DNA of 64,000 nt from a virus (Duplodnaviria > Heunggongvirae > Uroviricota > Caudoviricetes), in IMG/VR virus record IMGVR_UViG_2711768037_000005, positions 3,040 through 67,039 of that record; one strand, written 5' to 3'. The notes beneath the pieces were generated by a model. The model had not been told where the DNA came from. It saw nothing but the letters and a program-made list of their open reading frames with translations, and did not search any database. The position numbers were made by a program, and so were the translations under genes. Shown one piece after another: positions 1,070 through 63,609 of this stretch (its first letter is position 1; each line of letters begins with the position of its first letter).

Positions 1070-1120
1070 CCTGTTTCTGTATATAAATAATAAGTAACTT
1101 ATTATTTATACGGAAGCAGG
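1070..1120. repeat. 51-bp imperfect palindrome (CCTGTTTCTGTATATAAATAATAAGT / ACTTATTATTTATACGGAAGCAGG), copy 1; terminator-like hairpin after the par operon
   Basis: arms read directly from sequence; followed by TCTTTTAAAAG; closely related second copy at 47792-47847. Confidence 0.6.
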
Positions 1121-21399: not shown

Positions 21400-21831
21400 A
21401 TGATCACCGATATTTACGAGAAAATAATGTCTGATCTCGAGTTTGACCGAGACAATCTGGAGGAAGTCTGGCGTAGACAACCCCGCCTTTTAATGGAGTA
21501 TGGCTCAAAACTCGCTCATGCAGAAAGAAGTGTCGCAGAGGCAAAACTTAACCTTGAAGCTGTTGAAGCAAAGCTATACGACACAGAGCGTAAGAACTTG
21601 AGTATGAACGGCATTAAGTTCAACGAGTCTGTACTGGACGCTAAGGTTAAAACAAACCCACAGTATCTGTCTAAACGGCAGAAGTTGGATGAAGCACGGC
21701 ACATCGCAGACATATACAAACATGCTGTCGCCGCCTTTTCGCATCGCCGAGACATGATCGTTCAGGCGTCAAAGATGGCCATCGTTGAATTAGAGCGATT
21801 AGGCTCTGAACGCTTTATTACCCCCCGTTGA
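21400..21831 (+). CDS. hypothetical protein (helical/coiled-coil)
   Basis: 143 aa ORF after conserved AAAGGAAAGCACATG region. Confidence 0.5.
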   Translation: MITDIYEKIMSDLEFDRDNLEEVWRRQPRLLMEYGSKLAHAERSVAEAKLNLEAVEAKLYDTERKNLSMNGIKFNESVLDAKVKTNPQYLSKRQKLDEARHIADIYKHAVAAFSHRRDMIVQASKMAIVELERLGSERFITPR

Positions 21832-21948
21832 TTTTTGATAGATAATAAGTAAGTACTGATCTATCATTTAACAACTCAAAAGAGCCACGAATGAACGAAA
21901 GCCCAACGCGCATAGCGCCATCGGCCAAATCACAACAAGGAGAAACAC

Positions 21949-30198: not shown

Positions 30199-30731
30199 AC
30201 CGCTGACAGCATACACAATCAACTGCCGCTGATAGCATATCGAGAGTCTATCTCACCGCTCACAGCATACTTTACTCGATTTTTTACCGCTGACAGCATA
30301 CTTAAGACATTGCATGAATAATGTGTACCGGTATGGGTATAACCAGAACAAAATTACCGCTGGCAGCATACGAAGGTCTGACATATGCCATTAATTACCG
30401 CTGATAGCATATCCAAACAAAAATTCCTCAATAAAACACCGCTGACAGCATACGTTCTATCAGGGAGCAGCAGGCAATAAATGCCTTTCACTACAAGCAA
30501 TCAGCGCAATAGCAATAGAATGTTAGTGAGCGCAAACCTATATGGAATGCACTCTTCGAGGTTAGTAACCACTGGGGAGGTATGACAGAGCATTGAGTGG
30601 TGATAGATGATTTACCGCTCACAGCATACGTTCATCTCACTATACCGCTGGTAGCATATCTTTAACCGTTCACAGCATACATTTCAGAAAAATAGCCGCT
30701 GATAGCATACATTTCACCGCTGACAGCATAT
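30199..30731. repeat. downstream iteron array (12 copies of 16-bp ACCGCTGACAGCATAC-type repeat in two groups); incA-like copy-control locus
   Basis: copies counted by eye at about 30199, 30225, 30255, 30286, 30356, 30397, 30438, 30614, 30644, 30665, 30695, 30716; variants CTGATAGCATAT, CTCACAGCATAC; ~160-bp spacer between the groups. Confidence 0.85.
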
Positions 30732-31825
30732 CAAAGCAGTTTGAGACTATTGGAAAGGATCTCAATCATCTTGATATTTTCAGGCGTCAAATTCTGCGAA
30801 AGTTCAGTTATCTTGTTGATAATGTTCTGTTTAGCATCAATTTCCCCGGCTTTCTCATCTGGTTTTTTGGGTTCGATGTCTTCAGGTTTTGGCGGTGCGA
30901 CTTTAAGTTTTGGATTACGGCTGTGAATCTGGATATAGATCGACCGCCCTCGCTTAATCTCGCTGTATTCGAGATAGCCCAAATCTTGGAGAGCTTTTAA
31001 GCCGTTACGTATAGTCTGATTCTGCGAGCTTACATTCCTGCTACTCAAATTGAGTCGCGCACGCAATCGAGCAAGCGATACCGGCGCAGGCTTGGTTGGA
31101 AGACTTTCGATGAAGGTGTACAGAGCCTGTGCTGTTTCTTTGCGTGGTAGCTTATTGATAACCTTTAACTGCAAAAGAACCTTATGGTCAAAGCGATATA
31201 GTTCGGCCAGCTTCGGTTCTGCATAGAACACCACCGTATCTTTCTGCTCGTTGTAGTCCACGCTATTGATGAGGTGCACCATCAGAAGCGAGATCTTGTT
31301 AGAGCCGTCGACGTTCTTTTCTTCATACGTTCTCTGGAAAGACAGAGTTGTACGCATGATCTTCAAAAGACTGTTTGTAAGCCGGTCGCGGAGTGTTTTG
31401 CGGATCTGTGACGATGGATAGCCACAAAACTTCGCAAATTTCGTGATGCTTAACTCGACACGACCATTAGGTTCGCCGTATTCTGCCAGCGAACGCACAA
31501 CGCCCACCCACGTTTTGAAATCATGATCCATGTCCAGGCGAGGACCGGTTATCTTGATATCGGAATAGCCTTCAGAACGGGCTACTTCGAGCTGGACAAG
31601 CTCCTTTGAAGCATCGATCTCATTTGGCTTGTTACGTTTACTGTATTTTGTTCCCTTAAGCGTGGGGACGAACAACCCCAGTCGCATCAACGCAATTGGT
31701 TGGACTGTATTGTTGCTATTAGGGACAAGTTCCCCTGTGTACAATTCAAGGGAACCTTCTTCAAAGTTGTCGATGTTATCTTCTACTTCTTTGTTATTTT
31801 TACCTTTTTTATTTTTTGTGGACAT
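30731..31825 (-). CDS. repA: RepFIB/P1 RepA-family iteron-binding replication initiator
   Basis: blocks NSNNTVQPIALMRLGLFVP, ITGPRLDMDHDFKTWVGVV, AQALYTFIESLPTKPAPVSLARLRARLNLSS, GYLEYSEIKRGRS match RepFIB RepA as remembered; start placed at internal Met (MSTKNKKG) because the longer ORF to 31945 runs through the upstream iterons; RBS AAAGG 7 nt upstream. Confidence 0.85.
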   Translation of the reverse strand: MSTKNKKGKNNKEVEDNIDNFEEGSLELYTGELVPNSNNTVQPIALMRLGLFVPTLKGTKYSKRNKPNEIDASKELVQLEVARSEGYSDIKITGPRLDMDHDFKTWVGVVRSLAEYGEPNGRVELSITKFAKFCGYPSSQIRKTLRDRLTNSLLKIMRTTLSFQRTYEEKNVDGSNKISLLMVHLINSVDYNEQKDTVVFYAEPKLAELYRFDHKVLLQLKVINKLPRKETAQALYTFIESLPTKPAPVSLARLRARLNLSSRNVSSQNQTIRNGLKALQDLGYLEYSEIKRGRSIYIQIHSRNPKLKVAPPKPEDIEPKKPDEKAGEIDAKQNIINKITELSQNLTPENIKMIEILSNSLKLL

Positions 31826-31844
31826 GTGGACACCTTTGTCATTC

Positions 31845-31947
31845 AACCGCTGACAGCATACTTGATTTGCCGCTGACAGAATACCAAAAACAGTTGGCAG
31901 CATACGGTGAACCGCTGACAGACTATCAATTACCGCTGACAGCATAC
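31845..31947. repeat. upstream iteron array (4-5 copies of the same 16-bp repeat); origin-proximal (incC-like)
   Basis: copies at about 31845, 31869, 31911, 31931 plus one partial copy. Confidence 0.8.
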
Positions 31948-31987
31948 ATGAACATGGCTTCAGACCAGTCGTGGCGCGGCTTACAGC

Positions 31988-47791: not shown

Positions 47792-47847
47792 GCCTGCTTC
47801 TGTATATAAATAACTACATATTAATTATTAATATACGGAAGCAGGCT
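47792..47847. repeat. 56-bp imperfect palindrome, copy 2 (GCCTGCTTCTGTATATAAATAA / TTATTAATATACGGAAGCAGGC); terminator-like
   Basis: arms read directly; followed by TGTTTTGTATC; related to element at 1070-1120. Confidence 0.6.
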
Positions 47848-47953
47848 GTTTTGTATCAGAGACTCCAGACCTGAACATCACTACAGAATCCACTAGAACC
47901 CCTTCCCAGACGCTTTAAAATCGATTTTATGAACCACTTTAAGGAAAACTAAC

Positions 47954-48184
47954 ATGCCATACCCGACCAATGTTGTTGCGCTCGTAGAGAGCGATTTTCT
48001 GGCTAAGGCTCGTGAAATGATGAAAGATCGCGAGCAGGCTTTCAACTTGTACGAATGGGCAATTAAGTGCTTGCATCTTGGGGAGCATCGCGAACTTGTT
48101 GAACAGCTTTTAGGTGAGTTGATCAACGAGGTGTTTGCCTTGAATGTTCAACTACATGGTCGAGAAAATAATCAATCGAAATGA
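47954..48184 (+). CDS. hypothetical small protein
   Basis: 76 aa ORF with RBS AAGGAAA. Confidence 0.4.
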   Translation: MPYPTNVVALVESDFLAKAREMMKDREQAFNLYEWAIKCLHLGEHRELVEQLLGELINEVFALNVQLHGRENNQSK

Positions 48185-48703
48185 TAGATAAGTACAAACT
48201 ATTCATAAGATAAATTGTAAGTGCTAAGATCTGATAGTTTCCAGTCGTAGACTGGAGACTCGACCTGATGGGTGGGGGTAAGCGTCACTGGCGTCAGGTT
48301 TAAAAAAGCTCACTACCAGCGTAGAACCGGTGCCGTTTAGGTGTCGGGAAAGGGGGAACCAAAGTGAGCGGAGACAAGGGTCACTTTATGATTGTCGAGT
48401 CTGGGGTGTTTCGAGAGGTTGAATCCAGTACTCCCCTTCATAAAGTGTGGGAAGATCTCGGTTCTGGGGTGCTGTCATCCATAACTTCCCAAGTCTAAGC
48501 TGGCAGTAGACTTAGACCATAACTTTTCAGGTTATGAAACGACCAGGTTGGTGAGAGATTTTTATACTCACCTCCCTGGGAGAGTATTACCTGAAAAGAC
48601 AACCTCTCACTTCGTTCGAGGTGAACTTCACTCACTTCGTTCGTTCAGTTCAGGTTTATAAAAACCTGTTCTGGGAAGTAATTTGTTTATTTTAATAATT
48701 ATT

Positions 48704-54392: not shown

Positions 54393-55097
54393 ATGAACAA
54401 CCTCCAGTTAGAGCATTTTAACGTCACAGGCCATTCTGATTTTCCTTTCAAGTTTACATTGAAAGGTTATGCAGAGGATGCGGTAGGCCAGATCATTATT
54501 GATAAAGGCATCGTTAAGTTTGAGGGGGATTTTGATGAATCCGCGAAAACATTCATAGACTTCGTTGCCAAACGTTGGAGCGAGCAATGGAAAAACCTGG
54601 AAAAGCGCGCCAATGAGTTTGATCGGTTCATGGATGCAATGGATGCAGCAAAAGAGGCTCTTGATGCCGGGACTCCGTTAGATCTGGAGTCACTTTTCAA
54701 CGGCGAAGTGGCCTCTGCGATGTTCGCCACCATGTTCGCGGGTGAGTTCGTCCGCAGCGGTGCCAAAAACTACCTTGAGCTGGATTACAACGTCCCTGCA
54801 ATTGGCGATTTCGTCGTTACCATCCAACGCAAAGAAGGTAAGACGCCAGGTGAACGCGTCGCAGAGCTTGAGGCCGTTGTGGATCAGCGTAACGGAGAGT
54901 GTGACCGTTTGATCAACGAGCTTCATGCACTTCGGGAAGAAAGAATATGCGCGGGTAGTAATACACGTAATGCAGCGGATATCTACTTCCAGTTAGTTGA
55001 GGAATGCCAGATTCCACCAGGTGGCTCTCTTGTCGATTACGTAAGACATTTAATGGCGGAAGTTAGCTCCAGCCATAAAGATGGTGAGGTGCGCTGA
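54393..55097 (+). CDS. hypothetical protein
   Basis: 234 aa ORF after motif-A palindrome and GAGAAAAACACATG. Confidence 0.5.
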   Translation: MNNLQLEHFNVTGHSDFPFKFTLKGYAEDAVGQIIIDKGIVKFEGDFDESAKTFIDFVAKRWSEQWKNLEKRANEFDRFMDAMDAAKEALDAGTPLDLESLFNGEVASAMFATMFAGEFVRSGAKNYLELDYNVPAIGDFVVTIQRKEGKTPGERVAELEAVVDQRNGECDRLINELHALREERICAGSNTRNAADIYFQLVEECQIPPGGSLVDYVRHLMAEVSSSHKDGEVR

Positions 55098-55477
55098 TGT
55101 TTGGCATTGATGCACAGCGTATAGCAGCTTTTGCAAAAAGCCCTCTTGATAATCTCTTGTCTCGTAGTGAGCAAATGGCGCTGGCAAGGCTTTTTCTTCA
55201 CATTCAAAAACAGGCAGACATTTTCAATAACATGCCTGATCAACCTATTCTGGATGGTCACATCCAGATGGTCATTAACAGTCATGAGAAAGGCTGGGCT
55301 GCAATCGTCCCCTGCACAATTACATACAAGTTGGCGAAAGAGGTTCAAGAGTTTCGAAAAGCCAGTGTCGAATCGGAGTCTACCAAAGCCGCAATAAACA
55401 CTCTTATTCGCATGGGGTTCACATGGAACGGTGGGGCCTACTGGCAAGCACCTCACCCCATTTTATCCGGCAATTAG
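55097..55477 (+). CDS. hypothetical protein
   Basis: 126 aa, start overlaps previous stop. Confidence 0.45.
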   Translation: MFGIDAQRIAAFAKSPLDNLLSRSEQMALARLFLHIQKQADIFNNMPDQPILDGHIQMVINSHEKGWAAIVPCTITYKLAKEVQEFRKASVESESTKAAINTLIRMGFTWNGGAYWQAPHPILSGN

Positions 55478-55507
55478 ACGCTACAAATCCTTCGGCATGA
55501 ATAAATA

Positions 55508-55575
55508 AAGGCCATAAGTTGTGGCCTTAAATAAATTGTTTTCTACCTTTTCTTGTTTGTGAAAATAACCACGAC
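55508..55575. repeat. ~65-bp direct repeat unit, copy A (GC hairpin AAGGCCATAAGTTGTGGCCTT + AAATTGTTTTCTACCTTTTCTTGTTTGTGAAAAT)
   Basis: ~85% identical by eye to copy B at 61781-61853; hairpin plus T-rich tract looks like terminator plus promoter/operator. Confidence 0.6.
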
Positions 55576-55596
55576 TAGAAAACAACGGAGTTAAGA

Positions 55597-56238
55597 ATGT
55601 CTAGTATTTCCGAAGCACATATGTTCGCCGCTGGCGCTCATGGTGGCGTTGGTCAGAAAAGAAAATATACCGGCGAAGACTACATCAACCACCCGGTTGC
55701 TGTCCGAGATATTGTTGCATTGCATGACGGAACCGTGGAGATGCAGATCGCGGCGCTTCTGCATGATGTGGTCGAAGACACCAATGTAACCATAGAGATG
55801 GTTCGTGATCACTTCGGTGAGCGCGTAGCTGAAATGGTTCAGGCTCTGACCAACATTGCAAGGTCAGAAGACGGCAATCGAATACAGCGTTTCATCATCA
55901 ATGTCCGGGAGCTGGAGCAAAATCTCGACATGCAGACGCGCATGATCAAGCTGGCTGACCTGCTCGACAATACCTCTTCTATTGTGAGTCGCGATCCTGA
56001 GTTTTCAGCTATCTACCTTGCAGAGAAAGAGCTGATGCTGGACGTACTTTTTAACGGGAAGGAGATTGGTGCCAACGCTGATGTTGTCGAGTACATGGAG
56101 AGGATAGGTATAGAACACCCGTTGTTATTAAGCGCAAAGGCGAAAGTCACTGAAGGTATTGCGCTTCTGAAACCGGTACACATCAAACGTTATGAAAAAC
56201 ACAAATCGCTGATCTGGAGCGCGTGGGAGGCTGCATGA
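55597..56238 (+). CDS. HD-domain phosphohydrolase, SpoT/RelA-hydrolase-like (small alarmone hydrolase candidate)
   Basis: 213 aa; HPVAVRDIVA...AALLHDVVEDT matches the H...HD motif of (p)ppGpp hydrolase HD domains; no synthetase domain. Confidence 0.55.
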   Translation: MSSISEAHMFAAGAHGGVGQKRKYTGEDYINHPVAVRDIVALHDGTVEMQIAALLHDVVEDTNVTIEMVRDHFGERVAEMVQALTNIARSEDGNRIQRFIINVRELEQNLDMQTRMIKLADLLDNTSSIVSRDPEFSAIYLAEKELMLDVLFNGKEIGANADVVEYMERIGIEHPLLLSAKAKVTEGIALLKPVHIKRYEKHKSLIWSAWEAA

Positions 56239-56777
56239 AGGTAGAAAAAATAGATGTTCTTTCCTTTGTGTTGACAGAGCTGGAGCGTCTCGATCCGGTT
56301 CGAGTGATGATTGAAAACTACGAACCTGGTAAGGGAAGAATCACCATCACCTGCTACGGAAAAGCCTGGACAGCGGCTTGGTTTGCTATGGGCGGTGATG
56401 ATGTGCAGACGTTCATTAAGCGAGTTAGCAACGACTATCTAATCGACAATTTCGACCCTCAACTGCTAAGCACGGTCGACGATGACAACGATGCAAATCT
56501 GCTTTTCGTGAAGTCAGAAATCATAAAGTTACGAAGAGAGAGAGAAATCGACGCCGTACAGGCTCGCGAAATGTGGGACGAGGCGGAAAACGCTGATGAC
56601 GTAAAAGAAAGCTGCTGTTGTTTCGGCGTCGGTAACAAACTGCTGAATCTCTTTGGTGATGATCCGTGGTATGCCGACTGGCCAACTGTACCAAACCCGA
56701 AATACCAGTATCTGGAACGCATTGTGAACGCGGTACGTGAAGGGCTGAAAGAGTTAGACAAGTTAGAGGCATCGTAA
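56223..56777 (+). CDS. hypothetical protein
   Basis: 184 aa ORF. Confidence 0.45.
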   Translation: MGGCMKVEKIDVLSFVLTELERLDPVRVMIENYEPGKGRITITCYGKAWTAAWFAMGGDDVQTFIKRVSNDYLIDNFDPQLLSTVDDDNDANLLFVKSEIIKLRREREIDAVQAREMWDEAENADDVKESCCCFGVGNKLLNLFGDDPWYADWPTVPNPKYQYLERIVNAVREGLKELDKLEAS

Positions 56778-57313
56778 TGAGAGAGAAAATCAAGAACCCG
56801 GTCGTCGTATTGTATAAACGGGAAACCAGCGATTCTTATGCGGTATCCATCACTGATGGAAGCCAGAACATGCACGATGGTCTGCTAATGGCCTCCGTAT
56901 CTCCTGATGATTCGGACTACCCTTTCGCCACTTTCGCTATGGTTGGTTACTACATGGCTGCCGAAATTGAGAAGTTGCGGGCGCAGAGAGACGCATTAGC
57001 GGCGGAGAATGTGGCATTGCGATCTAAGGCTGCGGAACTGGCACATGAAGCGTCAAAAATTTACTCGGCATATAACGCCACTATCACAGAGCCTGACGGG
57101 GATTTTATGGACATGCAGACATTGCATGAAATGCAGTGCATAGAAACCCCAGCCACCGATGCTTTCCTGGCTGAAATTGAACGCAAAGCAATCCGCAAGT
57201 TCATTAACAGCATTGAACACATCCTGCGTGACAAGCTGTCACCGTATGACACCGAAGAGATGCTTGAGGCTATGCGTATTTTTCTGGAAGAACAGGGAGG
57301 TGAGCAAAAATGA
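56777..57313 (+). CDS. hypothetical protein with coiled-coil (lambdoid Ea22-like region protein?)
   Basis: 178 aa; coiled-coil LRAQRDALAAENVALRSKAAEL; family assignment tentative. Confidence 0.4.
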   Translation: MREKIKNPVVVLYKRETSDSYAVSITDGSQNMHDGLLMASVSPDDSDYPFATFAMVGYYMAAEIEKLRAQRDALAAENVALRSKAAELAHEASKIYSAYNATITEPDGDFMDMQTLHEMQCIETPATDAFLAEIERKAIRKFINSIEHILRDKLSPYDTEEMLEAMRIFLEEQGGEQK

Positions 57314-57624
57314 CAATCACAAAACAACGGGTAGAAAAAATCATATATCGCCATGAAATGGGACTGAACAGCGATGTCACTGCCGAAGAGGTTTATGACC
57401 TAGCTGTACTGGCGCTGAATTTATCAAATATCGCAAACCTGAAGCGATACGAGCTTGATATGGATGGTTGCGACTCGTGCGGTCAGGATTGTGGCGCTGA
57501 CATGACTGAAGATCCTGATGGTGATTATGTCCTGTTTGATGACGTGGTTAAGTTGTTTGAATTTGATACAACCACTCAAAAGTTAGAAAGCCCAGCAAAG
57601 GAGTCATCCAGTGAGCAAGATTGA
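57310..57624 (+). CDS. hypothetical protein
   Basis: 104 aa; contains CDSCGQDCG. Confidence 0.4.
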   Translation: MTITKQRVEKIIYRHEMGLNSDVTAEEVYDLAVLALNLSNIANLKRYELDMDGCDSCGQDCGADMTEDPDGDYVLFDDVVKLFEFDTTTQKLESPAKESSSEQD

Positions 57625-58126
57625 CTATCAGGCACTGCGTGAGGCGGCAGAGCGTGCAATTCCGGCAATGGAACGCCTGTTAATGTTGCCAGTTGATGAT
57701 GAGCTGATAAGCGAACAGGAACTTAAAGATAGCGGTGTTGATATTGATGCGCTCAACGCCTTCAAATTTCTGGCCGGACCAGAAACCGTGCTGGCGCTAC
57801 TGGATGAGAGCAACGCATTAGAGGAAACGCGTATCAACGATGTTTGTCGTATTGCAGAACTAACAAAACAACTGGAGTTGGCAAAATCAAAACTCAACGA
57901 GCAGCGTGAGTATTACGAGGGCGTTATCTCGGATGGAAGTAAGCGTATTGCTGAACTGGAAGCGCGGGAAGTTCAATTACCGACTCGCTACGACCTTCGA
58001 TATGGACACCCGATAAATGCAGATGAGCGACATGTCATGATACCTAAAGAAAATGGCAGTTGGCTTTACCTGATTGACCTAGAACACGCATTACGCGTCG
58101 CTGGCATTCGCATCAAAGGAGAGTGA
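57611..58126 (+). CDS. hypothetical protein (Ead/Ea22-like N-terminus?)
   Basis: 171 aa; N-terminus [16 protein letters not shown] resembles lambdoid Ead/Ea22-like proteins as remembered; tentative. Confidence 0.4.
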
Positions 58127-58127
58127 G

Positions 58128-58451
58128 ATGGCCACATCGCATTATGCAATCACCCAGGAAAAAGTATTTCGCTTGCTCGAACGTCTGGAGGCGCTCGCCA
58201 CGGAGGAAGATATATCCCCGGAGATGCTGGTTGAGTGCAGCCGTGTGATATTGCGTCACAAGAACGACATCGCGCGGCTGACATCTGGCGCACCATCCGT
58301 ATCAGCCAGTCCAACGCTTTATTGCAGCTTCTGCAACAAATCCCAGCACACCGTTAAAAAGTTAATTGCCGGGGACAACGTTTTCATCTGCAACGAGTGC
58401 GTGAAAGATTGCAACAACATTATCCAGGAAGATCAAAGGGAATCAGCATGA
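58128..58451 (+). CDS. protein with C-terminal ClpX-type C4 zinc-binding domain (ZBD) fused to a novel N-terminal region
   Basis: C-terminal [39 protein letters not shown] is ~75% identical by eye to the E. coli ClpX N-domain [39 protein letters not shown], including all four Cys; no AAA+ module follows. Confidence 0.75.
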
Positions 58452-59002
58452 AATTTTCCAAATTTTCTGAGTTGGTGAATCGTATTTTGTCCAACAACCA
58501 CAGCCATCGTCGCGATATGGATGTAACGATCGTTGTTCATTCGCCTGGTCGCATCGGTTCAACACCATCAGTTGAGGTTCAGTCAATTCAGGCGGGTTTT
58601 GATTGGGATGCCGGGCAAGTGATGATTTTTCCAGCACAGCCACTGACCACGCTAACACCAGAGCAGGTTGCTGATATCACTGATAGTGTGCGCAAAGGTC
58701 AGTCTTGGCACGCGTATCAGGAATACAAGAAGCATAAAGAGCAGTTGGAAAAATTGTCGATGGAGTTGGAAGCCGCTAAACAGCGGGAAAAAGATCTGTT
58801 TATGGAAAATGTTCGACTTAAGTCAGGTATAGCCGGTCTGATACACCTCGGTATTCGATATGCGGATGTTGAGGTCATGAAAATTGCTGGAGATGCCCAG
58901 CTTTCTACTCCATGCACTGACAGCATCATAAACAGCATTGCAGCAGGCATTTTCACCAAAGAGGGGGGTCAGCACGATGAGAACACTAGAAGTTCGCGCT
59001 GA
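58449..59002 (+). CDS. hypothetical protein
   Basis: start at ATG 58449 with RBS AAGGGAA (ORF track extends to 58397). Confidence 0.45.
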
Positions 59003-59161
59003 AGACGTAATCCCTGGTGATGTGCTCATAACATCTAAAGGTCAACAATGTGCGGTTAAATCTTTTTGGATGGAAGATGACAAAGTGACTCTGTTCGGTA
59101 CGGATGGTTCCGAAACTGATTATGACTACGACGAATTGCTTGTTGTTGAGAGAGCTGCCTA

Positions 59162-59584
59162 ATGACCACCTTAACCAAAGAACAGTTAATCTCCCATGCA
59201 CGCGAAAGCGTTAGTTATCTGGAAGACTTGAAAGGACGTGTTAGTAAAGAAGGTGCGGACTGCAAAGTTGTTATTGAGATGGTTGAACGAGATCTAAAAC
59301 TGGCACGAATTGCACTGGCCTCGCTGGAAGCAAAACCAATAGGTGCTTTCCACATTGCAGAACAGCAGGTCGATGGCACAAGTGACTACATCAAGGATGG
59401 AGAATGGCCTATTGATAATGGAATTATTGAGGTCTACGCCGCTCCACCCGTTCCAGTAGTACCGGAAGAAAAACCAATGCCTAATCCTCTTAGCATGTAC
59501 GCGGTTGATGCTGTTGCCGCTATTGCAGAGGTGAGAGGCTGGAACGCCTGCCGTGCCGCTATGCTTCAGGGAAAAGGAGAGTGA
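59162..59584 (+). CDS. hypothetical protein
   Basis: 140 aa ORF. Confidence 0.45.
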   Translation: MTTLTKEQLISHARESVSYLEDLKGRVSKEGADCKVVIEMVERDLKLARIALASLEAKPIGAFHIAEQQVDGTSDYIKDGEWPIDNGIIEVYAAPPVPVVPEEKPMPNPLSMYAVDAVAAIAEVRGWNACRAAMLQGKGE

Positions 59585-59585
59585 T

Positions 59586-60161
59586 ATGACCACTATAACC
59601 GATAAGAAACAGTATCCAGGCGAGCAATATCTTAATGAGCTGATCACCAACATAGAGTTTGCTGCAAGGGCACCAGTTGAAGTCGTGAGAGCAATGGCAG
59701 CAGAGCTACAGAAGCGGCGCGAAGCTGATAGTGCCGAACCTGCAAGTAATCATGAAGAGTTGCCGCTTGATTATCTCCAAGGTCAAAAAGATGGTCTTGA
59801 ATGGGCTGCGCAGCTTGCAGAAGCAAATCACCCACAAACTGGCGACTGGCTTTACGATGACCCGCTGGAGCTGGCTAAAGCTATCAGAAAAGGTCCTGAC
59901 ATGCCCGAATTCGATGGACCAACTCCGGTAACTCCGGATGGCTGGATAAGCTGTAGTGAGCGAATGCCGAAAAAGAATCAGAACGTACTTATTTCGGTGA
60001 ATTTCGATAGTGATCTGGTTGAGCCGCTAATATGCTCCGCACGCTATACCGGAAGCACCTTTCGGCGAGGAGAAGCAACGATTAAGCCGGGCAATGGTGT
60101 TGAGCAGGTAACACACTGGATGCCGCTACCAGAACCGCCGCAGGAGTCGAAGAGTGAATAA
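59586..60161 (+). CDS. DUF551-like protein (lambdoid accessory-region family)
   Basis: C-terminal DGWISCSERMPKK...VTHWMPLPEPP matches the characteristic W-x-P-L-P-E-P-P end of DUF551 proteins as remembered; start at ATG 59586. Confidence 0.5.
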   Translation: MTTITDKKQYPGEQYLNELITNIEFAARAPVEVVRAMAAELQKRREADSAEPASNHEELPLDYLQGQKDGLEWAAQLAEANHPQTGDWLYDDPLELAKAIRKGPDMPEFDGPTPVTPDGWISCSERMPKKNQNVLISVNFDSDLVEPLICSARYTGSTFRRGEATIKPGNGVEQVTHWMPLPEPPQESKSE

Positions 60162-60375
60162 AGCAGAGTTATTTCAGAAAATATCGGCTCTCGCGACTGA
60201 ATGCCACGCTATAGCATCTGAGCTTGATGTTGGCGATGAACGAACCGAGATGTTCGAAATATACAGTGTGCTGCGCAATCTCTGTCGGCGTGGCTACGCC
60301 ACTCAGGTAGGGCGAATAACTAACCCACTGCTCACCTCCTTTGGTGATGATGACTCGAATGAGGATGAAGAATGA
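60154..60375 (+). CDS. hypothetical small acidic protein
   Basis: 73 aa ORF. Confidence 0.35.
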   Translation: MNKAELFQKISALATECHAIASELDVGDERTEMFEIYSVLRNLCRRGYATQVGRITNPLLTSFGDDDSNEDEE

Positions 60376-61226
60376 TGCATAAATCATTAGCCGGTGAGCT
60401 TCAGGAGGAAGTAGATAATACTACCGTTCTATTGGACGATATTATAAGCATTCTTGCGCTTCTTGAGGCTGGCGATTGGTCAGAACATTGCACTAAAACA
60501 GAGCTAGGCGGTCGGCTTGAAAGAGAGATTACACGACTTATTGATGATGCGCAGGAAGCTACAGTCACTAGTTATGAGTTAATCGCTGAAGCCTGGCGTT
60601 TGATGGATGGACAAGATCCTAAAACCAGCGATTGGCATAGCAAGGCTTCGAAGTATTTAAATTCCGATAGGGTAGAAAAAGTTGATGATGTGAAACCGAA
60701 GCCAGTAGACCACGGTTTCCGCGATAACTGCGAATGCTCTAGTTGCCAGACCACGGCCCGTATTTGTTCCGAATTGACAGATAAGTCCAGCCTAATCTAC
60801 GAAGTTAATGTAGGCGGTAATACATGGGGCGAATGCACAAGAGCTGCATACGTAAGAGCAAAAGACAAGGGTGAATTAACCAGAGTTGTTACCCATCACC
60901 CAAATAATGAGCTTAAAGATCAACAGATTAGAGAACTGGTGAACGAGTTGCGGGATATTGCGGTTCAGTACCACGGAACGCAGCAATTGCGGGAGAAAAT
61001 TGCCAGAGCAGTGAATAACTCGCTCAAAGGTGGACAATTTCAACCGAAACGTATACGAATTACGCATATAGGTGAAAACGGCGTAGAAATCCCCCAATTC
61101 TCTGTTGGGGACATCTTTGATGTGTATGGAGAAGAGTTTGGCGAGCCTCACATCACCATGCCTAGTGGCCATGTTTACTGGCTAAGAGCTATGGAGAAAT
61201 ATGGTGATAAATGGGAAGTGTTATGA
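60372..61226 (+). CDS. hypothetical protein
   Basis: 284 aa; contains CECSSCQ. Confidence 0.45.
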   Translation: MMHKSLAGELQEEVDNTTVLLDDIISILALLEAGDWSEHCTKTELGGRLEREITRLIDDAQEATVTSYELIAEAWRLMDGQDPKTSDWHSKASKYLNSDRVEKVDDVKPKPVDHGFRDNCECSSCQTTARICSELTDKSSLIYEVNVGGNTWGECTRAAYVRAKDKGELTRVVTHHPNNELKDQQIRELVNELRDIAVQYHGTQQLREKIARAVNNSLKGGQFQPKRIRITHIGENGVEIPQFSVGDIFDVYGEEFGEPHITMPSGHVYWLRAMEKYGDKWEVL

Positions 61227-61764
61227 GGGATGCGAAGTTATGACTAAATTTGGAAAGCTGGAAGCTCATTTGCTAACTCGTAACTACCGCCATGATGTGC
61301 ATCCATATAGACAGTGGATCGATGAAAGCGAAGGAGTTGTTACATTCCCTCTATACAGGTTTGATGGGATGTTGGCCGGGTATCAGACATACAGACCAGG
61401 CGCTCCTAAGCAGCATAGCAATCCGAAGATGGCCCGGTATTTCACACGAGCGCACGGCAGACAGCTACTATGGGGAACCTATCTTCCTTTGAAAGATGGA
61501 CCTATATGGATAACTGAGTCGATTTTTAAAAGTGCAGCAGTGCACAACGCTGGCGGAAATTCGTGGGCGCTGTTAGGTTCGACTTTCTCAGCAGGATTAC
61601 GTCGTCAACTGGCAATGCTGCCGTATGACTTTCGTGTTATAGGTGACAATGATGCGGCTGGTGAATCACTTGTGAAGTCTTTCGGAAAAGGTTTTGTGGC
61701 ACCGGATCTTGACGAGCTACAACCACATGAAGTGTCTAATTTGATTTTTAGCCATAGCCAATAA
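61201..61764 (+). CDS. Toprim-domain protein
   Basis: 187 aa; conserved Glu (IWITESIFKS) and DxD (VIGDNDAAGE) spaced as in Toprim folds. Confidence 0.4.
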   Translation: MVINGKCYEGCEVMTKFGKLEAHLLTRNYRHDVHPYRQWIDESEGVVTFPLYRFDGMLAGYQTYRPGAPKQHSNPKMARYFTRAHGRQLLWGTYLPLKDGPIWITESIFKSAAVHNAGGNSWALLGSTFSAGLRRQLAMLPYDFRVIGDNDAAGESLVKSFGKGFVAPDLDELQPHEVSNLIFSHSQ

Positions 61765-61780
61765 GCATCCCTTCTCCATT

Positions 61781-61853
61781 AAGGCCACAACTAGTGGCCT
61801 TAAACAATTTGTTTTCTACGTTTTCTTATTTGAGAAAATCACGTTGCTGGCAG
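61781..61853. repeat. ~65-bp direct repeat unit, copy B (hairpin AAGGCCACAACTAGTGGCCTT + AAACAATTTGTTTTCTACGTTTTCTTATTTGAGAAAAT)
   Basis: paired with copy A at 55508-55575. Confidence 0.6.
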
Positions 61854-62043
61854 CTCATAGGCTTGTTGTTATACATAGCTGTATAGATTATGAGCGTAAA
61901 TTATTAGCAGCTAATTCCTTATTAACTGATTGGCAACGAGGTTACGCTGATCCGTTGGTGATGAATAGTAGCAAAGAGCACAAAATCATCAGCGGTGGTT
62001 GATGTGCGTAACGCGTTTGCACCAAAGGTGCTTCTTTAATGTA

Positions 62044-62063
62044 TACTGTATAGATGAACAGTA
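62044..62063. promoter_or_regulatory. LexA (SOS) box TACTGTATAGATGAACAGTA upstream of the umuD'-like gene
   Basis: matches CTGT-N8-ACAG consensus with flanking TA; sits 19 bp upstream of the start codon. Confidence 0.75.
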
Positions 62064-62081
62064 TTTTGGAGTAAAAACGCT

Positions 62082-62471
62082 ATGGCCTTCCCTTCTCCTG
62101 CGGCGGATTATGTTGAAAGCAGAATTTCTCTTGATCAGCAACTAATCAGGCATCCATCAGCGACCTACTTCATGCGGGCAGCTGATAGTCATCATCGTGA
62201 GGGAATATTACAGGGTGCATTGCTGGTGGTCGATTCCTCACTTACCCCGGTTGATGGTTCTCTGCTTGTATGCGCTCTGGATGGGGAATATCGCGTAAAA
62301 AGATACCGGAAGTATCCACGTCAGCATCTGGAGGATTTAAGAACTGGTAAGAAGGAAGCATTGCCAAAGGATGACGATGGATGCACGGGCAGCAATGCCG
62401 TGTTTGGTGTGATCACTCACATTATCAACGACGCAAGAAGTGGCGAGTTTGATGATTGTCCTGTGATGTAG
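62082..62471 (+). CDS. UmuD'-like protein (LexA/S24 peptidase fold, pre-truncated; P1 HumD-like)
   Basis: 129 aa; begins [30 protein letters not shown], matching UmuD from just after its RecA-mediated cleavage site ([29 protein letters not shown]); Ser and Lys of the dyad present. Confidence 0.75.
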   Translation: [129 protein letters not shown]

Positions 62472-62484
62472 GAGAACTGTTTAG

Positions 62485-62510
62485 GTGGTGCATTGCACCA
62501 CCTTTTTATC
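62485..62510. terminator. bidirectional terminator hairpin between convergent umuD'-like and apbC
   Basis: GGTGGTGCA-T-TGCACCACC followed by TTTTTAT. Confidence 0.6.
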
Positions 62511-63609
62511 ACACTGCGCGGAATGCGATTTCGCTAGGTATTACTTCACCTTGCCAATACATTTGGGCAGCAACGCGATCTGCGAGGTCACGATAAATAG
62601 CCGTAAATTCGCTATCTGGACGACTAATAACGGTTGGTGTTCCGTTATCCAGATCTTCACGAAGTGAGATATGAAGTGGCATTTGGCCTAACAACTGCGT
62701 GTTGTATTTCTCGGCCAGTTTCTCTGCGCCACCGGTGCCAAAAATTGGCTCGTGATGACCGCAGTTACTGCAAATATGCACACTCATGTTTTCGACGATA
62801 CCCAGTACCGGCACTTCGACTTTTTCGAACATCACAATGCCTTTCTTCGCATCGATCAGCGCGATGTCTTGCGGCGTAGTTACCACAACCGCACCAGTTA
62901 CAGGAATGTTCTGCGCCAGCGTCAACTGAATATCACCAGTGCCCGGCGGCATATCGAGAACGAGATAGTCCAGATCAGGCCATAGAGTTTCCTGCAACAT
63001 CTGCATCAGCGCCTTGCTGGCCATCGGTCCACGCCACACCATTGCATTGTCGTCGGTGACCAGATAACCAATAGAGTTGGTTGCCAGGCCATGAGACATG
63101 ATAGGTGCCATGTGAGTACCGTCAGGTGAGGTTGGACGTTGGTTTTCCGCGCCCAGCATGGTTGGAATTGATGGACCATAGATATCGGCATCCAAAATAC
63201 CAACTTTCGCACCTTCAGCAGCCAACGCCAGTGCCAGGTTTACCGCCGTGGAGGATTTACCCACGCCGCCCTTGCCTGAGCTGACGGCGATAATGTTCTT
63301 AACGCCATTAATGCCTGGTTGGTTTTTGACGCGCTTAAGCGTGGCAATGTTGTACGACAGCTTCCAGTCAATAGCCTTTGCGCCAGTGATACGGAGCAGA
63401 TCACTACTACATTGCTCTTTCAGGTCTTCAAAAGGCTTATTCCACACGAAAGGCATGATTAGTTCGACATGCAGTGTGTCATCCATCAACGCAACATGGT
63501 GTAACGCTTTAAGCGTAGTCAGGTTGTGTTTCAGGGTTGGGTGCTGAAAATTAGCCAGCGTACCGGCTACCATTGCTCTCAGGGCATCCGGCGATTTGGA
63601 CTCGCTCAT
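62509..63609 (-). CDS. apbC: Fe-S cluster carrier ATPase ApbC/Mrp (chromosomal housekeeping gene)
   Basis: 366 aa; near-identical to remembered E. coli Mrp over most of its length (AVSSGKGGVGKSSTAVNLALALAAEGAKVGILDADIYGPS, ICSNCGHHEPIFG). Confidence 0.95.
   Translation of the reverse strand: MSESKSPDALRAMVAGTLANFQHPTLKHNLTTLKALHHVALMDDTLHVELIMPFVWNKPFEDLKEQCSSDLLRITGAKAIDWKLSYNIATLKRVKNQPGINGVKNIIAVSSGKGGVGKSSTAVNLALALAAEGAKVGILDADIYGPSIPTMLGAENQRPTSPDGTHMAPIMSHGLATNSIGYLVTDDNAMVWRGPMASKALMQMLQETLWPDLDYLVLDMPPGTGDIQLTLAQNIPVTGAVVVTTPQDIALIDAKKGIVMFEKVEVPVLGIVENMSVHICSNCGHHEPIFGTGGAEKLAEKYNTQLLGQMPLHISLREDLDNGTPTVISRPDSEFTAIYRDLADRVAAQMYWQGEVIPSEIAFRAV

What the first reader, a model, noticed from the sequence alone, without database searches (positions are those of the whole stretch)
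55508..61853. A ~6.3-kb accessory cassette bracketed by ~65-bp direct repeats
Two ~85% identical repeat units (55508-55575 and 61781-61853), each a GC-rich hairpin followed by an AAACAATTTGTTTTCTAC...TTTTCTT.TTTG.GAAAAT tract, flank a block of 11 same-strand genes. These include the HD/SpoT-like hydrolase, coiled-coil Ea22-like proteins, the ClpX-ZBD protein, a DUF551-like protein and a Toprim protein. The arrangement suggests a module gained by, or prone to loss through, recombination between repeated terminator-promoter units, and gene content points to host-manipulation or anti-defence roles. About 220 bp after copy B (61860-62040) is ORF-free and may be a remnant.
Basis: partly seen in the sequence, partly recalled or inferred. 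Interest (0 to 1): 0.5.

Follow-up and report, generated by a model that had tools for sequence, protein, structure and literature searches.

The report
Repeated terminator-promoter units bracket accessory genes
Two copies of a 65-base regulatory unit (a likely terminator hairpin plus a likely promoter) flank a block of 13 accessory genes on an SSU5-like phage-plasmid of E. coli, and related plasmids that lost exactly that block through recombination between the two copies show that the unit acts as a recombination handle, much like the PeSL cassettes of T4-type phages.

Summary
The repeat is real. Positions 55505-55569 and 61778-61842 match at 55 of 65 bases; the best match in shuffled sequence was 37 of 65.

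The window is an SSU5-like phage-plasmid of E. coli. Each unit has three parts:
- a hairpin, AAGGCCAY..RTGGCCTT;
- a palindrome, AAYAAnTTGTT;
- an extended -10-like TGnGAAAAT.

Copy A lies 27 nt after the stop of the upstream gene in all 33 sequences compared. Homology among them ends exactly at its 3' edge and continues into four different sequences. Copy B always follows the Toprim gene and is complete in only 3 of 22 unbiased relatives.

Three plasmids lack the whole block and keep one unit. Their crossover points differ (3' edge in two, 5' stem in one), so A x B recombination happened at least twice.

The promoter half is generic: at least 5 copies per replicon, 19 downstream contexts, and presence in P1-like phage-plasmids.

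The block is not a discrete mobile module, because its interior is mosaic gene by gene. An anti-defence role is untested (no PADLOC hit). The ORF-free stretch after B is a P1-type lxr-humD remnant.

Closest known kind: PeSL cassettes of T4-like phages. I rate this a new member of a known kind, of moderate interest.

The parts
55097..55477 (+). Conserved left-flank gene (126 aa, no Pfam family). It is the last gene of the DUF4942 / 234-aa / 126-aa array.
   Evidence: It is present at 85-98% amino-acid identity in all loci fetched with it.
55505..55569 (+). Unit A. Hairpin 55508-55528; palindrome AATAAATTGTT 55530-55540; TG 55558-55559 and -10-like GAAAAT 55561-55566.
   Evidence: It is found 27 nt after the stop of the 126-aa gene in all 33 sequences. 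Homology among relatives ends exactly at its 3' edge.
55597..56238 (+). HD-domain (HD_4, SpoT/RelA-type hydrolase-like) protein, the first gene after unit A.
   Evidence: Pfam HD_4, E = 9e-19. PHROG 990, metal-dependent phosphohydrolase.
56235..57624 (+). Three ORFs of unknown function: 56235-56777, 56777-57313 and 57310-57624.
   Evidence: No Pfam family. PHROGs 3451, 492 and 3126, all of unknown function.
57611..58126 (+). Ead/Ea22-like protein.
   Evidence: Pfam Ead_Ea22, E = 1e-22.
58128..58451 (+). Small protein with a ClpX-type C4 zinc finger.
   Evidence: Pfam zf-C4_ClpX, E = 1e-17.
58448..59584 (+). Three ORFs of unknown function: 58448-59002, 58938-59162 and 59162-59584.
   Evidence: PHROGs 6026, 15283 and 5117, all of unknown function.
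59553..60161 (+). DUF551-domain protein.
   Evidence: Pfam DUF551, E = 4e-22.
60154..61226 (+). Two ORFs of unknown function: 60154-60375 and 60372-61226.
   Evidence: PHROGs 4220 and 20174.
61201..61764 (+). Toprim-domain protein, the last gene of the block. Copy B always follows its stop codon.
   Evidence: PHROG 849, 'DNA primase'. NCBI names the near-identical protein in relatives 'toprim domain-containing'. Its link to B is shown.
61778..61842 (+). Unit B. Hairpin 61779-61803; palindrome AACAATTTGTT 61803-61813; TG 61831-61832 and -10-like GAAAAT 61834-61839.
   Evidence: Together with its flanks it is 89% identical to P1-like elements.
61843..62043 (.). ORF-free remnant. Up to about 61908 it matches the sequence that follows the unit in P1 variants. 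From about 61909 it matches the P1 lxr-humD intergenic region. The two parts join at a TAGC microhomology, and lxr and upf93.6 are absent.
62044..62063 (+). Perfect LexA (SOS) box, TACTGTATAGATGAACAGTA, in front of humD.
   Evidence: 0 mismatches. Only 0.29 hits with up to 2 mismatches are expected by chance.
62082..62471 (+). humD / umuD-like S24 peptidase, the conserved right flank of the variable region.
   Evidence: Pfam Peptidase_S24. It is 95-98% identical in relatives and shared with P1.

Best explanation
The two repeats are copies of a small regulatory cassette used by SSU5-like phage-plasmids in their accessory-gene region.

Inferred function of the cassette:
- The 5' hairpin ends or attenuates transcription coming from upstream.
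- The 3' part is an extended -10 sigma-70-type promoter (TGnGAWAAT) that restarts transcription into whatever genes follow.
- The palindrome AAYAAnTTGTT over the -35 region is probably an operator for a regulator that I could not identify.

Consequence for the genome (shown): the same roughly 40-65 nt sequence sits at several junctions, so it gives a patch of homology. General homologous recombination acts on that patch, through host RecA or a phage function. Exchange between copy A and copy B deletes the genes in between and leaves one, sometimes chimeric, unit. The reverse reaction would insert genes. Exchange with a copy on another replicon replaces the downstream genes.

Shown here: the repeat; its fixed place; the sharp mosaic boundary at its 3' edge; two independent A x B recombinants; and its presence at many junctions and in P1-like elements.

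Inferred only: terminator activity, promoter activity, the operator role, and which recombination pathway acts.
For: Repeat and replicon:
- 65 nt, 85% identical, far above chance.
- The window is an SSU5-like phage-plasmid.

Unit A as a fixed boundary:
- It is present at the same place in 33 of 33 sequences.
- All alignments stay continuous to ...GTGAAAATAA and then split into four unrelated continuations: the HD gene, a gene beginning MSNKIEN, the sequence found in locus L002 (pGS04EC-1), or humD upstream sequence.

Empty sites:
- Three plasmids have one unit and a unit-to-humD distance of 159 nt. That equals the B-to-humD distance in the close relative NZ_CP027369 (locus L004).
- In NZ_CP045191 the left 56 nt are 100% the A context and the right 94 nt are 100% the B context.
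- Crossover points differ. NZ_CP045191 and NZ_CP139126 carry 8 of 8 A-type diagnostic bases. NZ_CP075723 carries 1 A-type base and then 7 B-type bases.
- Frequency: 3 of 150 plasmid records and 3 of 161 complete E. coli genomes that carry the locus.

Hairpin:
- 99.3% of cells are paired across 17 distinct copies, and one pair changes C-G / U-A / U-G.
- More distant copies carry other hairpins at the same place, such as AAGGCTAT..ATAGCCTT and GGCGCG..CGCGCC.

Promoter part:
- TGnGAWAAT is kept in nearly all copy types although the downstream genes differ.
- The closest relative has 3 further copies outside the window, in the same orientation, all in the accessory region after metG.
- 183 instances fall into 19 downstream contexts.

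Sharing with P1-like elements:
- The unit occurs in P7, SJ46 and P1 variants.
- The window's B side is P1-type.

The model matches what was proposed and partly tested for PeSLs (PMC2839356).
Against: - No transcription data. The hairpin is not followed by a clean U-run on the + strand, so it may attenuate rather than terminate. The -35 is poor (TTGTTT at a 19-nt spacing).
- Most variation inside the block has breakpoints within genes and not at units. The unit therefore explains the edges and the whole-block deletion, not the interior mosaic.
- 17 of 22 unbiased relatives carry a cassette without copy B.
- Both observed crossovers lie in short identity blocks of 7-9 nt at the two edges of the unit, not in its longest 19-nt block. 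This is unusual for simple RecA-mediated exchange.
- The direction of the event (loss or gain) cannot be decided.
Confidence: 0.7

Rival explanations
1. The two copies are only paralogous regulatory elements kept similar by selection for the same regulator. The variable region turns over by ordinary illegitimate or gene-internal recombination, and the units play no special part as recombination substrates.
For: - Interior breakpoints lie within genes.
- Most relatives lack copy B.
- The promoter half is a generic element at many junctions.
Against: - Two independent recombinants have their junctions inside the 65-nt unit, with perfect A-left and B-right flanks.
- Homology among 33 sequences breaks at exactly the last base of the unit.
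- Truncated B copies in loci L027 and L019 have breakpoints inside the unit.
Confidence: 0.17
2. The unit is a site for a site-specific recombinase, an integron-like or cer/lox-like system. The recombinase could be the tyrosine integrase encoded at window 12092-13195, with the hairpin or palindrome as its core site.
For: - A palindromic core and a hairpin are present.
- The near-identical relative annotates a site-specific integrase that maps to window 12092-13195 by gene order (the window ORF itself was not scanned).
Against: - The two crossovers lie about 50 nt apart, at opposite ends of the unit. A site-specific enzyme cuts at one fixed place.
- The integrase gene is about 43 kb away.
- The genes of the block are not individually flanked by sites.
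- The same palindrome sits in front of ribosome-binding sites of core genes.
- No Rfam family matches.
Confidence: 0.03
3. The single-unit plasmids are the ancestral state. The block was inserted by recombination of a circular or foreign DNA that carried one unit, so the event was a gain and not a loss. The mechanism is the same, run in reverse.
For: - In PeSLs both directions are proposed, and excised circles were detected (PMC2839356).
- A Toprim 3' fragment plus unit B is also found in P1-like elements, which shows movement between replicons.
Against: - All 33 sequences carry A-type units at the A position except NZ_CP075723. That exception is most simply explained as a deletion with a crossover at the 5' edge.
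- Empty sites are rare: 3 of about 150.
Confidence: 0.1

Closest known systems
PeSLs (promoter-early stem-loops) of T4-type phages (Arbiol et al. 2010, PMC2839356; Comeau et al. 2014, PMC4122927)
   Same: - A short intergenic cassette that combines a stem-loop terminator or attenuator with a sigma-70-type promoter.
- Many copies, concentrated in a hyperplastic region of non-essential genes of unknown function.
- Differences between close relatives are bounded by the cassettes.
- The empty site keeps one copy, which may be chimeric.
   Different: - The sequence is unrelated.
- The host element is a temperate phage-plasmid, not a virulent T4-like phage.
- The hairpin lies upstream of the promoter and is joined to a palindromic operator-like motif.
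- There are only about 5 copies per replicon, against about 50.
- The unit is shared between two unrelated phage-plasmid groups (SSU5-like and P1-like).
- Promoter and terminator activity and circles have not been tested here.
Morons of lambdoid phages (extra genes with their own promoter and terminator between genes that are adjacent in relatives)
   Same: - Accessory genes lie between two conserved neighbours (the 126-aa gene and humD) that are adjacent in some relatives.
- The block has a promoter-like element in front and a hairpin behind.
   Different: - It is a 13-gene mosaic array, not one gene.
- The flanking elements are copies of one another and serve as recombination substrates, which is not part of the moron definition.
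The single plastic locus of SSU5-like phage-plasmids (Pfeifer et al. 2022, PMC9600943)
   Same: - That paper states that IS and resistance-gene insertions in SSU5-like elements are concentrated in one locus, often flanked by DNA-repair genes.
- Here, relatives carry IS1 (locus L006), IS2, IS100 or ISEcp1-blaCTX-M-15 in this same interval next to humD.
   Different: I found no mention of the repeated regulatory unit or of the A x B deletion in that paper's passages on its plastic or ARG-bearing loci, or in a 2025 SSU5 preprint I term-searched.
Variable region upstream of humD in P1, P7 and SJ46
   Same: - humD with a LexA box forms the right border.
- Ea22-, EaA- and DUF551-type genes lie to the left.
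- The same unit, with a Toprim 3' fragment, is present in P7, SJ46 and some P1 variants.
   Different: - Canonical P1 (NC_005856) shares only humD and its upstream region.
- The P1 variant MH422554 has lxr and upf93.6 between the unit and humD (pEC15-3 has only about 300 nt there). These are deleted in the window.

Membership tests
PeSL-type regulatory cassette (T4-like phages) | Composite intergenic motif of a stem-loop plus a sigma-70-like promoter within about 100 bp | tested here: met
   An 8-10 bp GC-rich hairpin is followed within 30 nt by a conserved TGnGAWAAT. This rests on sequence only. The -35 is weak.
PeSL-type regulatory cassette (T4-like phages) | Multiple copies per genome, concentrated in a hyperplastic region upstream of non-essential genes or ORFans | tested here: met
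   There are two copies in the window and three more in the closest relative. All have the same orientation and all lie in the accessory region around humD, mrp and metG. This is far fewer than the roughly 50 per genome in phi1 and RB49.
PeSL-type regulatory cassette (T4-like phages) | Insertions and deletions between close relatives are bounded by the cassettes, with a single (chimeric) copy at the empty site | tested here: met
   Three empty-site plasmids show two crossover points, and one has a chimeric unit.
PeSL-type regulatory cassette (T4-like phages) | Promoter and terminator activity shown by reporter assays | not testable with these tools
   This needs lacZ or GFP fusions, or mapping of transcript ends.
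PeSL-type regulatory cassette (T4-like phages) | Excised mini-circles that carry one cassette plus the deleted genes | not testable with these tools
   This needs outward-facing PCR or long reads from cultures or virions.
PeSL-type regulatory cassette (T4-like phages) | Belongs to T4-like myoviruses and shares the PeSL sequence motifs | tested here: not met
   The element is an SSU5-like phage-plasmid. In the phage collection the unit occurs only in SSU5-like and P1-like records, 14 of 50,697. It is therefore an analogue and not a member.
Integron cassette / attC or other site-specific recombination site | One fixed crossover position and an adjacent recombinase gene | tested here: not met
   The crossovers lie at opposite ends of the unit. 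The only integrase is about 43 kb away.
Moron | An extra transcription unit, with its own promoter and terminator, between genes that are adjacent in relatives | tested here: inconclusive
   The flanking genes are adjacent in three relatives, and promoter-like and terminator-like elements are present. However, the insert is a 13-gene mosaic and its transcription is untested.
Known anti-phage defence systems (PADLOC) | Proteins match defence-system models | tested here: not met
   None of the ten proteins tested matched at E <= 0.001.

The most novel reading that the evidence does not exclude
The unit would be more than a passive patch of homology. It would be a portable 'plug' of a regulon. 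In this reading one phage-plasmid regulator binds AAYAAnTTGTT at the -35 region of these promoters and at a second copy just before the ribosome-binding site, about 51 nt downstream in several copies. It also binds in front of at least six core operons. Any gene that lands behind a unit would then be wired at once into the element's own control circuit. Because SSU5-like and P1-like phage-plasmids share the unit next to humD, it would also act as a bridge for gene exchange between these two otherwise unrelated families.
Probability: 0.2. Interest if true: 0.55.

Novelty: new member of a known kind. Interest (0 to 1): 0.4.

Why it matters
SSU5-like phage-plasmids are common in E. coli, Salmonella and Klebsiella. 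They pick up resistance genes and insertion sequences in essentially one locus, and this is that locus. A defined 65-nt unit that marks the left edge of the locus and recombines with its own copies gives a concrete, testable mechanism for how cargo is lost, gained and swapped there. The swapping includes exchange with P1-like elements.

It also extends the PeSL idea. In that idea, regulatory cassettes serve both as expression signals and as recombination handles. It was known only from virulent T4-type phages, and this extends it to temperate phage-plasmids.

The gain is modest. The principle is known, the functions of the cargo genes remain unknown, and promoter and terminator activity have not been shown.

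Tried and rejected
- **Chance or low-complexity similarity:** rejected. Copy B matches 55 of 65; the best match in shuffles was 37 of 65.
- **Known RNA family:** none within 55000-62600 at E <= 1.
- **Known defence system:** no PADLOC hit.
- **Site-specific recombination:** rejected, because the two crossover points differ.
- **A third full copy in the window:** none. There are only the two, even when the unit is searched as 40-nt halves at 78% identity or more.
- **GTDB genome scan with the 126-aa protein:** it gave a single locus, so it added little.
- **Degraded copy B in relatives without B:** their humD upstream region has aaaaatttgttaaaaataacgtt, which could be a deleted derivative of the unit. 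I could not tell it from chance and dropped it.
- **Second LexA box at about 61875:** it has two mismatches in one half-site and did not come up in the pattern search.
- **Literature:** three term searches, and reading within two SSU5 papers, found no description of this unit. One search failed on a term that was too short.
- **Regulator for the palindrome:** I did not try to identify it. No tool result bears on it.


Full report
**What the window is.** The region 55000-62500 matches SSU5-like phage-plasmids of E. coli. The best plasmid hit is NZ_CP027369, at 98.5% identity over 82% of the query. Phages CMS-2020a, PhiR41_1, Cyrano and SSU5 also match. All relatives match both ends of the query but only 52-82% of its length, in several pieces. 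So the ends are conserved and the middle is mosaic.

**The observation.** The repeat finder reports one long direct repeat in the window: 55505-55569 against 61778-61842, 65 nt, 85% identical, no gaps. In 50 dinucleotide-preserving shuffles the best match to unit A was 37 of 65, against 55 of 65 observed. The window has no third full copy, even when the unit is searched as two halves.

Each unit reads as follows:
- a hairpin, AAGGCCAY-loop-RTGGCCTT;
- the palindrome AAYAAnTTGTT;
- TTCTACnTTTTCTTnTTTG;
- TGnGAAAAT.

As RNA, the hairpins fold at -12.1 kcal/mol (A) and -15.6 kcal/mol (B), with z-scores of -2.6 and -4.9.

Between the units lie 13 same-strand ORFs. Each has a Pfam or PHROG match. 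Pfam identifies HD_4, Ead_Ea22, the ClpX zinc finger and DUF551. A Toprim protein matches a 'DNA primase' PHROG. The other eight are of unknown function.

**The flanks.** On the left is a DUF4942 / 234-aa / 126-aa gene array. On the right are a perfect LexA box (62044-62063), humD/umuD-like (62082-471), and mrp/apbC on the opposite strand.

**Comparison with relatives.** I fetched 27 IMG/VR loci and one GTDB locus with the 126-aa protein, and several plasmid regions.
- Unit A is present in all 33 sequences, always 27 nt after the stop codon of the 126-aa gene.
- All sequences align without a break up to ...TTTGTGAAAATAA. From the next base they fall into four unrelated continuations: the HD gene, a gene beginning MSNKIEN, the sequence found in locus L002 (pGS04EC-1), or humD upstream sequence. 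The 3' edge of the unit is therefore the exact left border of the variable region.
- The distance from A to humD ranges from 159 nt to 6577 nt. The window has the longest block in the sample.
- A coverage matrix shows the interior varying gene by gene, often with breakpoints inside genes.
- Copy B is much rarer. Among the 22 unbiased IMG/VR loci that reach humD, 3 have a full copy B, 2 have a copy truncated after about 43 nt, and 17 have none.
- Wherever B occurs, it directly follows the stop codon of the Toprim gene.

**The decisive test.** I searched with the left and right flanks joined, leaving out the units and the block. This found plasmids in which the flanks are adjacent. In pNT1F31-113kb (NZ_CP045191) the order is the 126-aa gene, one unit, 94 nt, then humD. 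The unit-to-humD distance is 159 nt, the same as the B-to-humD distance in NZ_CP027369.

Base by base:
- The 56 nt to the left of the unit are 100% identical to the A context.
- The 94 nt to its right are 100% identical to the B context of NZ_CP027369.
- In NZ_CP045191 and NZ_CP139126 the unit carries all eight A-type diagnostic bases. The switch therefore lies in the last 9 nt of the unit.
- In NZ_CP075723 (Thailand) only the first diagnostic base is A-type and the other seven are B-type. The switch therefore lies in the 5' stem of the hairpin.

Two different crossover points mean at least two independent exchanges between A and B. They also argue against a site-specific enzyme, which would cut at one fixed place. 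Such empty sites are rare: 3 of 150 matching plasmid records, and 3 of 161 complete E. coli genomes that carry the locus. At least 22 of those 161 genomes show both the A-side and the B-side match (183 places in 161 records).

**What the unit is.** The hairpin is maintained. Across 17 distinct copies, 99.3% of cells pair, and one pair changes among C-G, U-A and U-G. More distant copies carry different hairpins at the same place, such as AAGGCTAT..ATAGCCTT and GGCGCG..CGCGCC followed by a T-run.

The 3' half is a generic module.
- The part of the closest relative that lies outside the window has three more copies. They have the same orientation and all lie in the accessory region after metG.
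- A degenerate pattern for the module found 110 stretches in IMG/VR.
- The 183 instances in all DNA held fall into 19 downstream contexts.
- TGnGAWAAT is kept in nearly all types, which is the form of an extended -10 promoter. The best -35 candidate is poor (TTGTTT at a 19-nt spacing).
- The simple sigma-70 scan did not call a + strand promoter here. It called the hairpin as a terminator on the + strand for B but only on the - strand for A.

So promoter and terminator activity are reasonable inferences, not results.

**The palindrome.** AACAAnTTGTT also occurs at six other places in the window, each 17-25 nt before a + strand start codon. In several promoter-module copies a second palindrome sits about 51 nt downstream, just before the ribosome-binding site. 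This looks like an operator family for one regulator, but nothing here identifies the protein.

**Link to P1.**
- Window 61552-61908 covers the Toprim 3' end, unit B and about 65 nt after it. It is 89% identical to one contiguous segment in a P1 variant (MH422554) and in the IncY plasmid pEC15-3.
- Window 61909-62470 matches the P1 humD gene and its upstream region.
- In the P1 variant MH422554, upf93.6 and lxr lie between the two segments; pEC15-3 has only about 300 nt there. In the window the two segments are fused at a TAGC microhomology.
- In the phage collection the unit occurs in only 14 of 50,697 records. All are SSU5-like (SSU5, Cyrano, CMS-2020a, PhiR41_1, pJN2-26) or P1-like (P7, SJ46, P1 variants).
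- The window's own B variant has only one close match among plasmids, NZ_CP124394 at 98.8%.

**Mechanism.** I commit to the following. The unit is a terminator-plus-promoter cassette. It insulates and drives accessory genes (inferred). Because it is repeated, it is also a substrate for general homologous recombination that deletes, inserts or swaps the genes behind it. The recombination outcome is shown; the pathway is inferred.

Caveats:
- The unit accounts for the edges and for whole-block loss, not for the mosaic inside the block.
- Both crossovers lie in very short identity blocks at the edges of the unit.
- Loss and gain cannot be told apart.

**Comparison with what is known.** This is the arrangement described for PeSLs in T4-type phages. 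Those are short promoter/stem-loop cassettes, concentrated in hyperplastic regions, that flank ORFans. A single cassette is left where a gene is missing in a close relative, and promoter activity, terminator activity and excised circles were shown experimentally (PMC2839356; PMC4122927).

The present unit meets the structural and comparative criteria. It is unrelated in sequence and sits in a different kind of phage, so it is an analogue and not a member.

Pfeifer et al. 2022 noted that insertions in SSU5-like elements are concentrated in one locus, often next to DNA-repair genes (PMC9600943). Relatives here carry IS1, IS2, IS100 or ISEcp1-blaCTX-M-15 in this interval, so this is probably that locus. 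I found no description of the repeated unit.

**Verdict.** No defence-system model matches. I rate it a new member of a known kind, of moderate interest.

Noticed in passing
window 1991, 14105, 26519, 40042, 50258, 50987 (+ strand): The palindrome AA(C/T)AAnTTGTT, usually within AAGAAAACAAyTTGTTTAAA, sits 17-25 nt upstream of the start codons of six + strand genes, just before the ribosome-binding site. Eight of the nine hits in the window are intergenic. It looks like an operator or 5'-UTR signal used across the whole replicon. The binding factor is unknown.
   Followed up: partly
L036 15974; L039 (NZ_CP027369 record about 47779); L007 13956: In promoter-module copies after metG, a second palindrome lies about 51 nt downstream of the first, between the -10 element and the ribosome-binding site. 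This gives a two-operator arrangement roughly five helical turns apart.
   Followed up: no
window 30210-31950: Clusters of iteron-like repeats (core CCGCTGACAGCATA) lie on both sides of a - strand gene at 30731-31945. The near-identical relative annotates that gene as a RepB-family replication initiator. This is probably the plasmid replication origin.
   Followed up: no
window 62509-63609 (- strand) and beyond the right end: A host-like mrp/apbC iron-sulfur carrier gene follows humD. In relatives, a complete methionyl-tRNA synthetase gene (metG) comes next. In loci L002, L031 and L032 both are replaced by a DUF4145 gene, and the replacement is again bounded by a promoter-module copy.
   Followed up: partly
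L039 (NZ_CP027369 record 47886-48578): A second HD-domain gene, a paralogue of the first cassette gene with a similar N-terminus (MSIVDKAHMFA), lies after metG. It is also preceded by a (diverged) promoter-module copy.
   Followed up: no
L006 about 10520; NZ_CP107165, NZ_CP053753 and NZ_CP137164: Insertion sequences and a resistance gene interrupt this same interval in relatives. An IS1 end (recognised from memory, not checked with a tool) lies inside the HD gene in L006. One search lists IS2, IS100 and ISEcp1 with blaCTX-M-15 in other plasmids.
   Followed up: partly
window 1070-1110, 21825-21865, 47793-47833: Another intergenic repeat family, CCTGyTTCTGTATATAAATAA..., has three copies at 63-78% identity. 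Its meaning is unknown.
   Followed up: no
L007-L010, L013-L017 and others, about 130 nt upstream of humD: Relatives without copy B have aaaaatttgttaaaaataacgtt at this place. It could be an internally deleted derivative of the unit (palindrome joined to AAAATAACGTT), or it could be chance.
   Followed up: no
window 12092-13195: This 367-aa ORF corresponds by position to the gene annotated as a site-specific integrase in the near-identical relative; the window ORF itself was not scanned. It lies next to a divergent helix-turn-helix regulator gene. It may serve in multimer resolution. It is far from the cassette.
   Followed up: no
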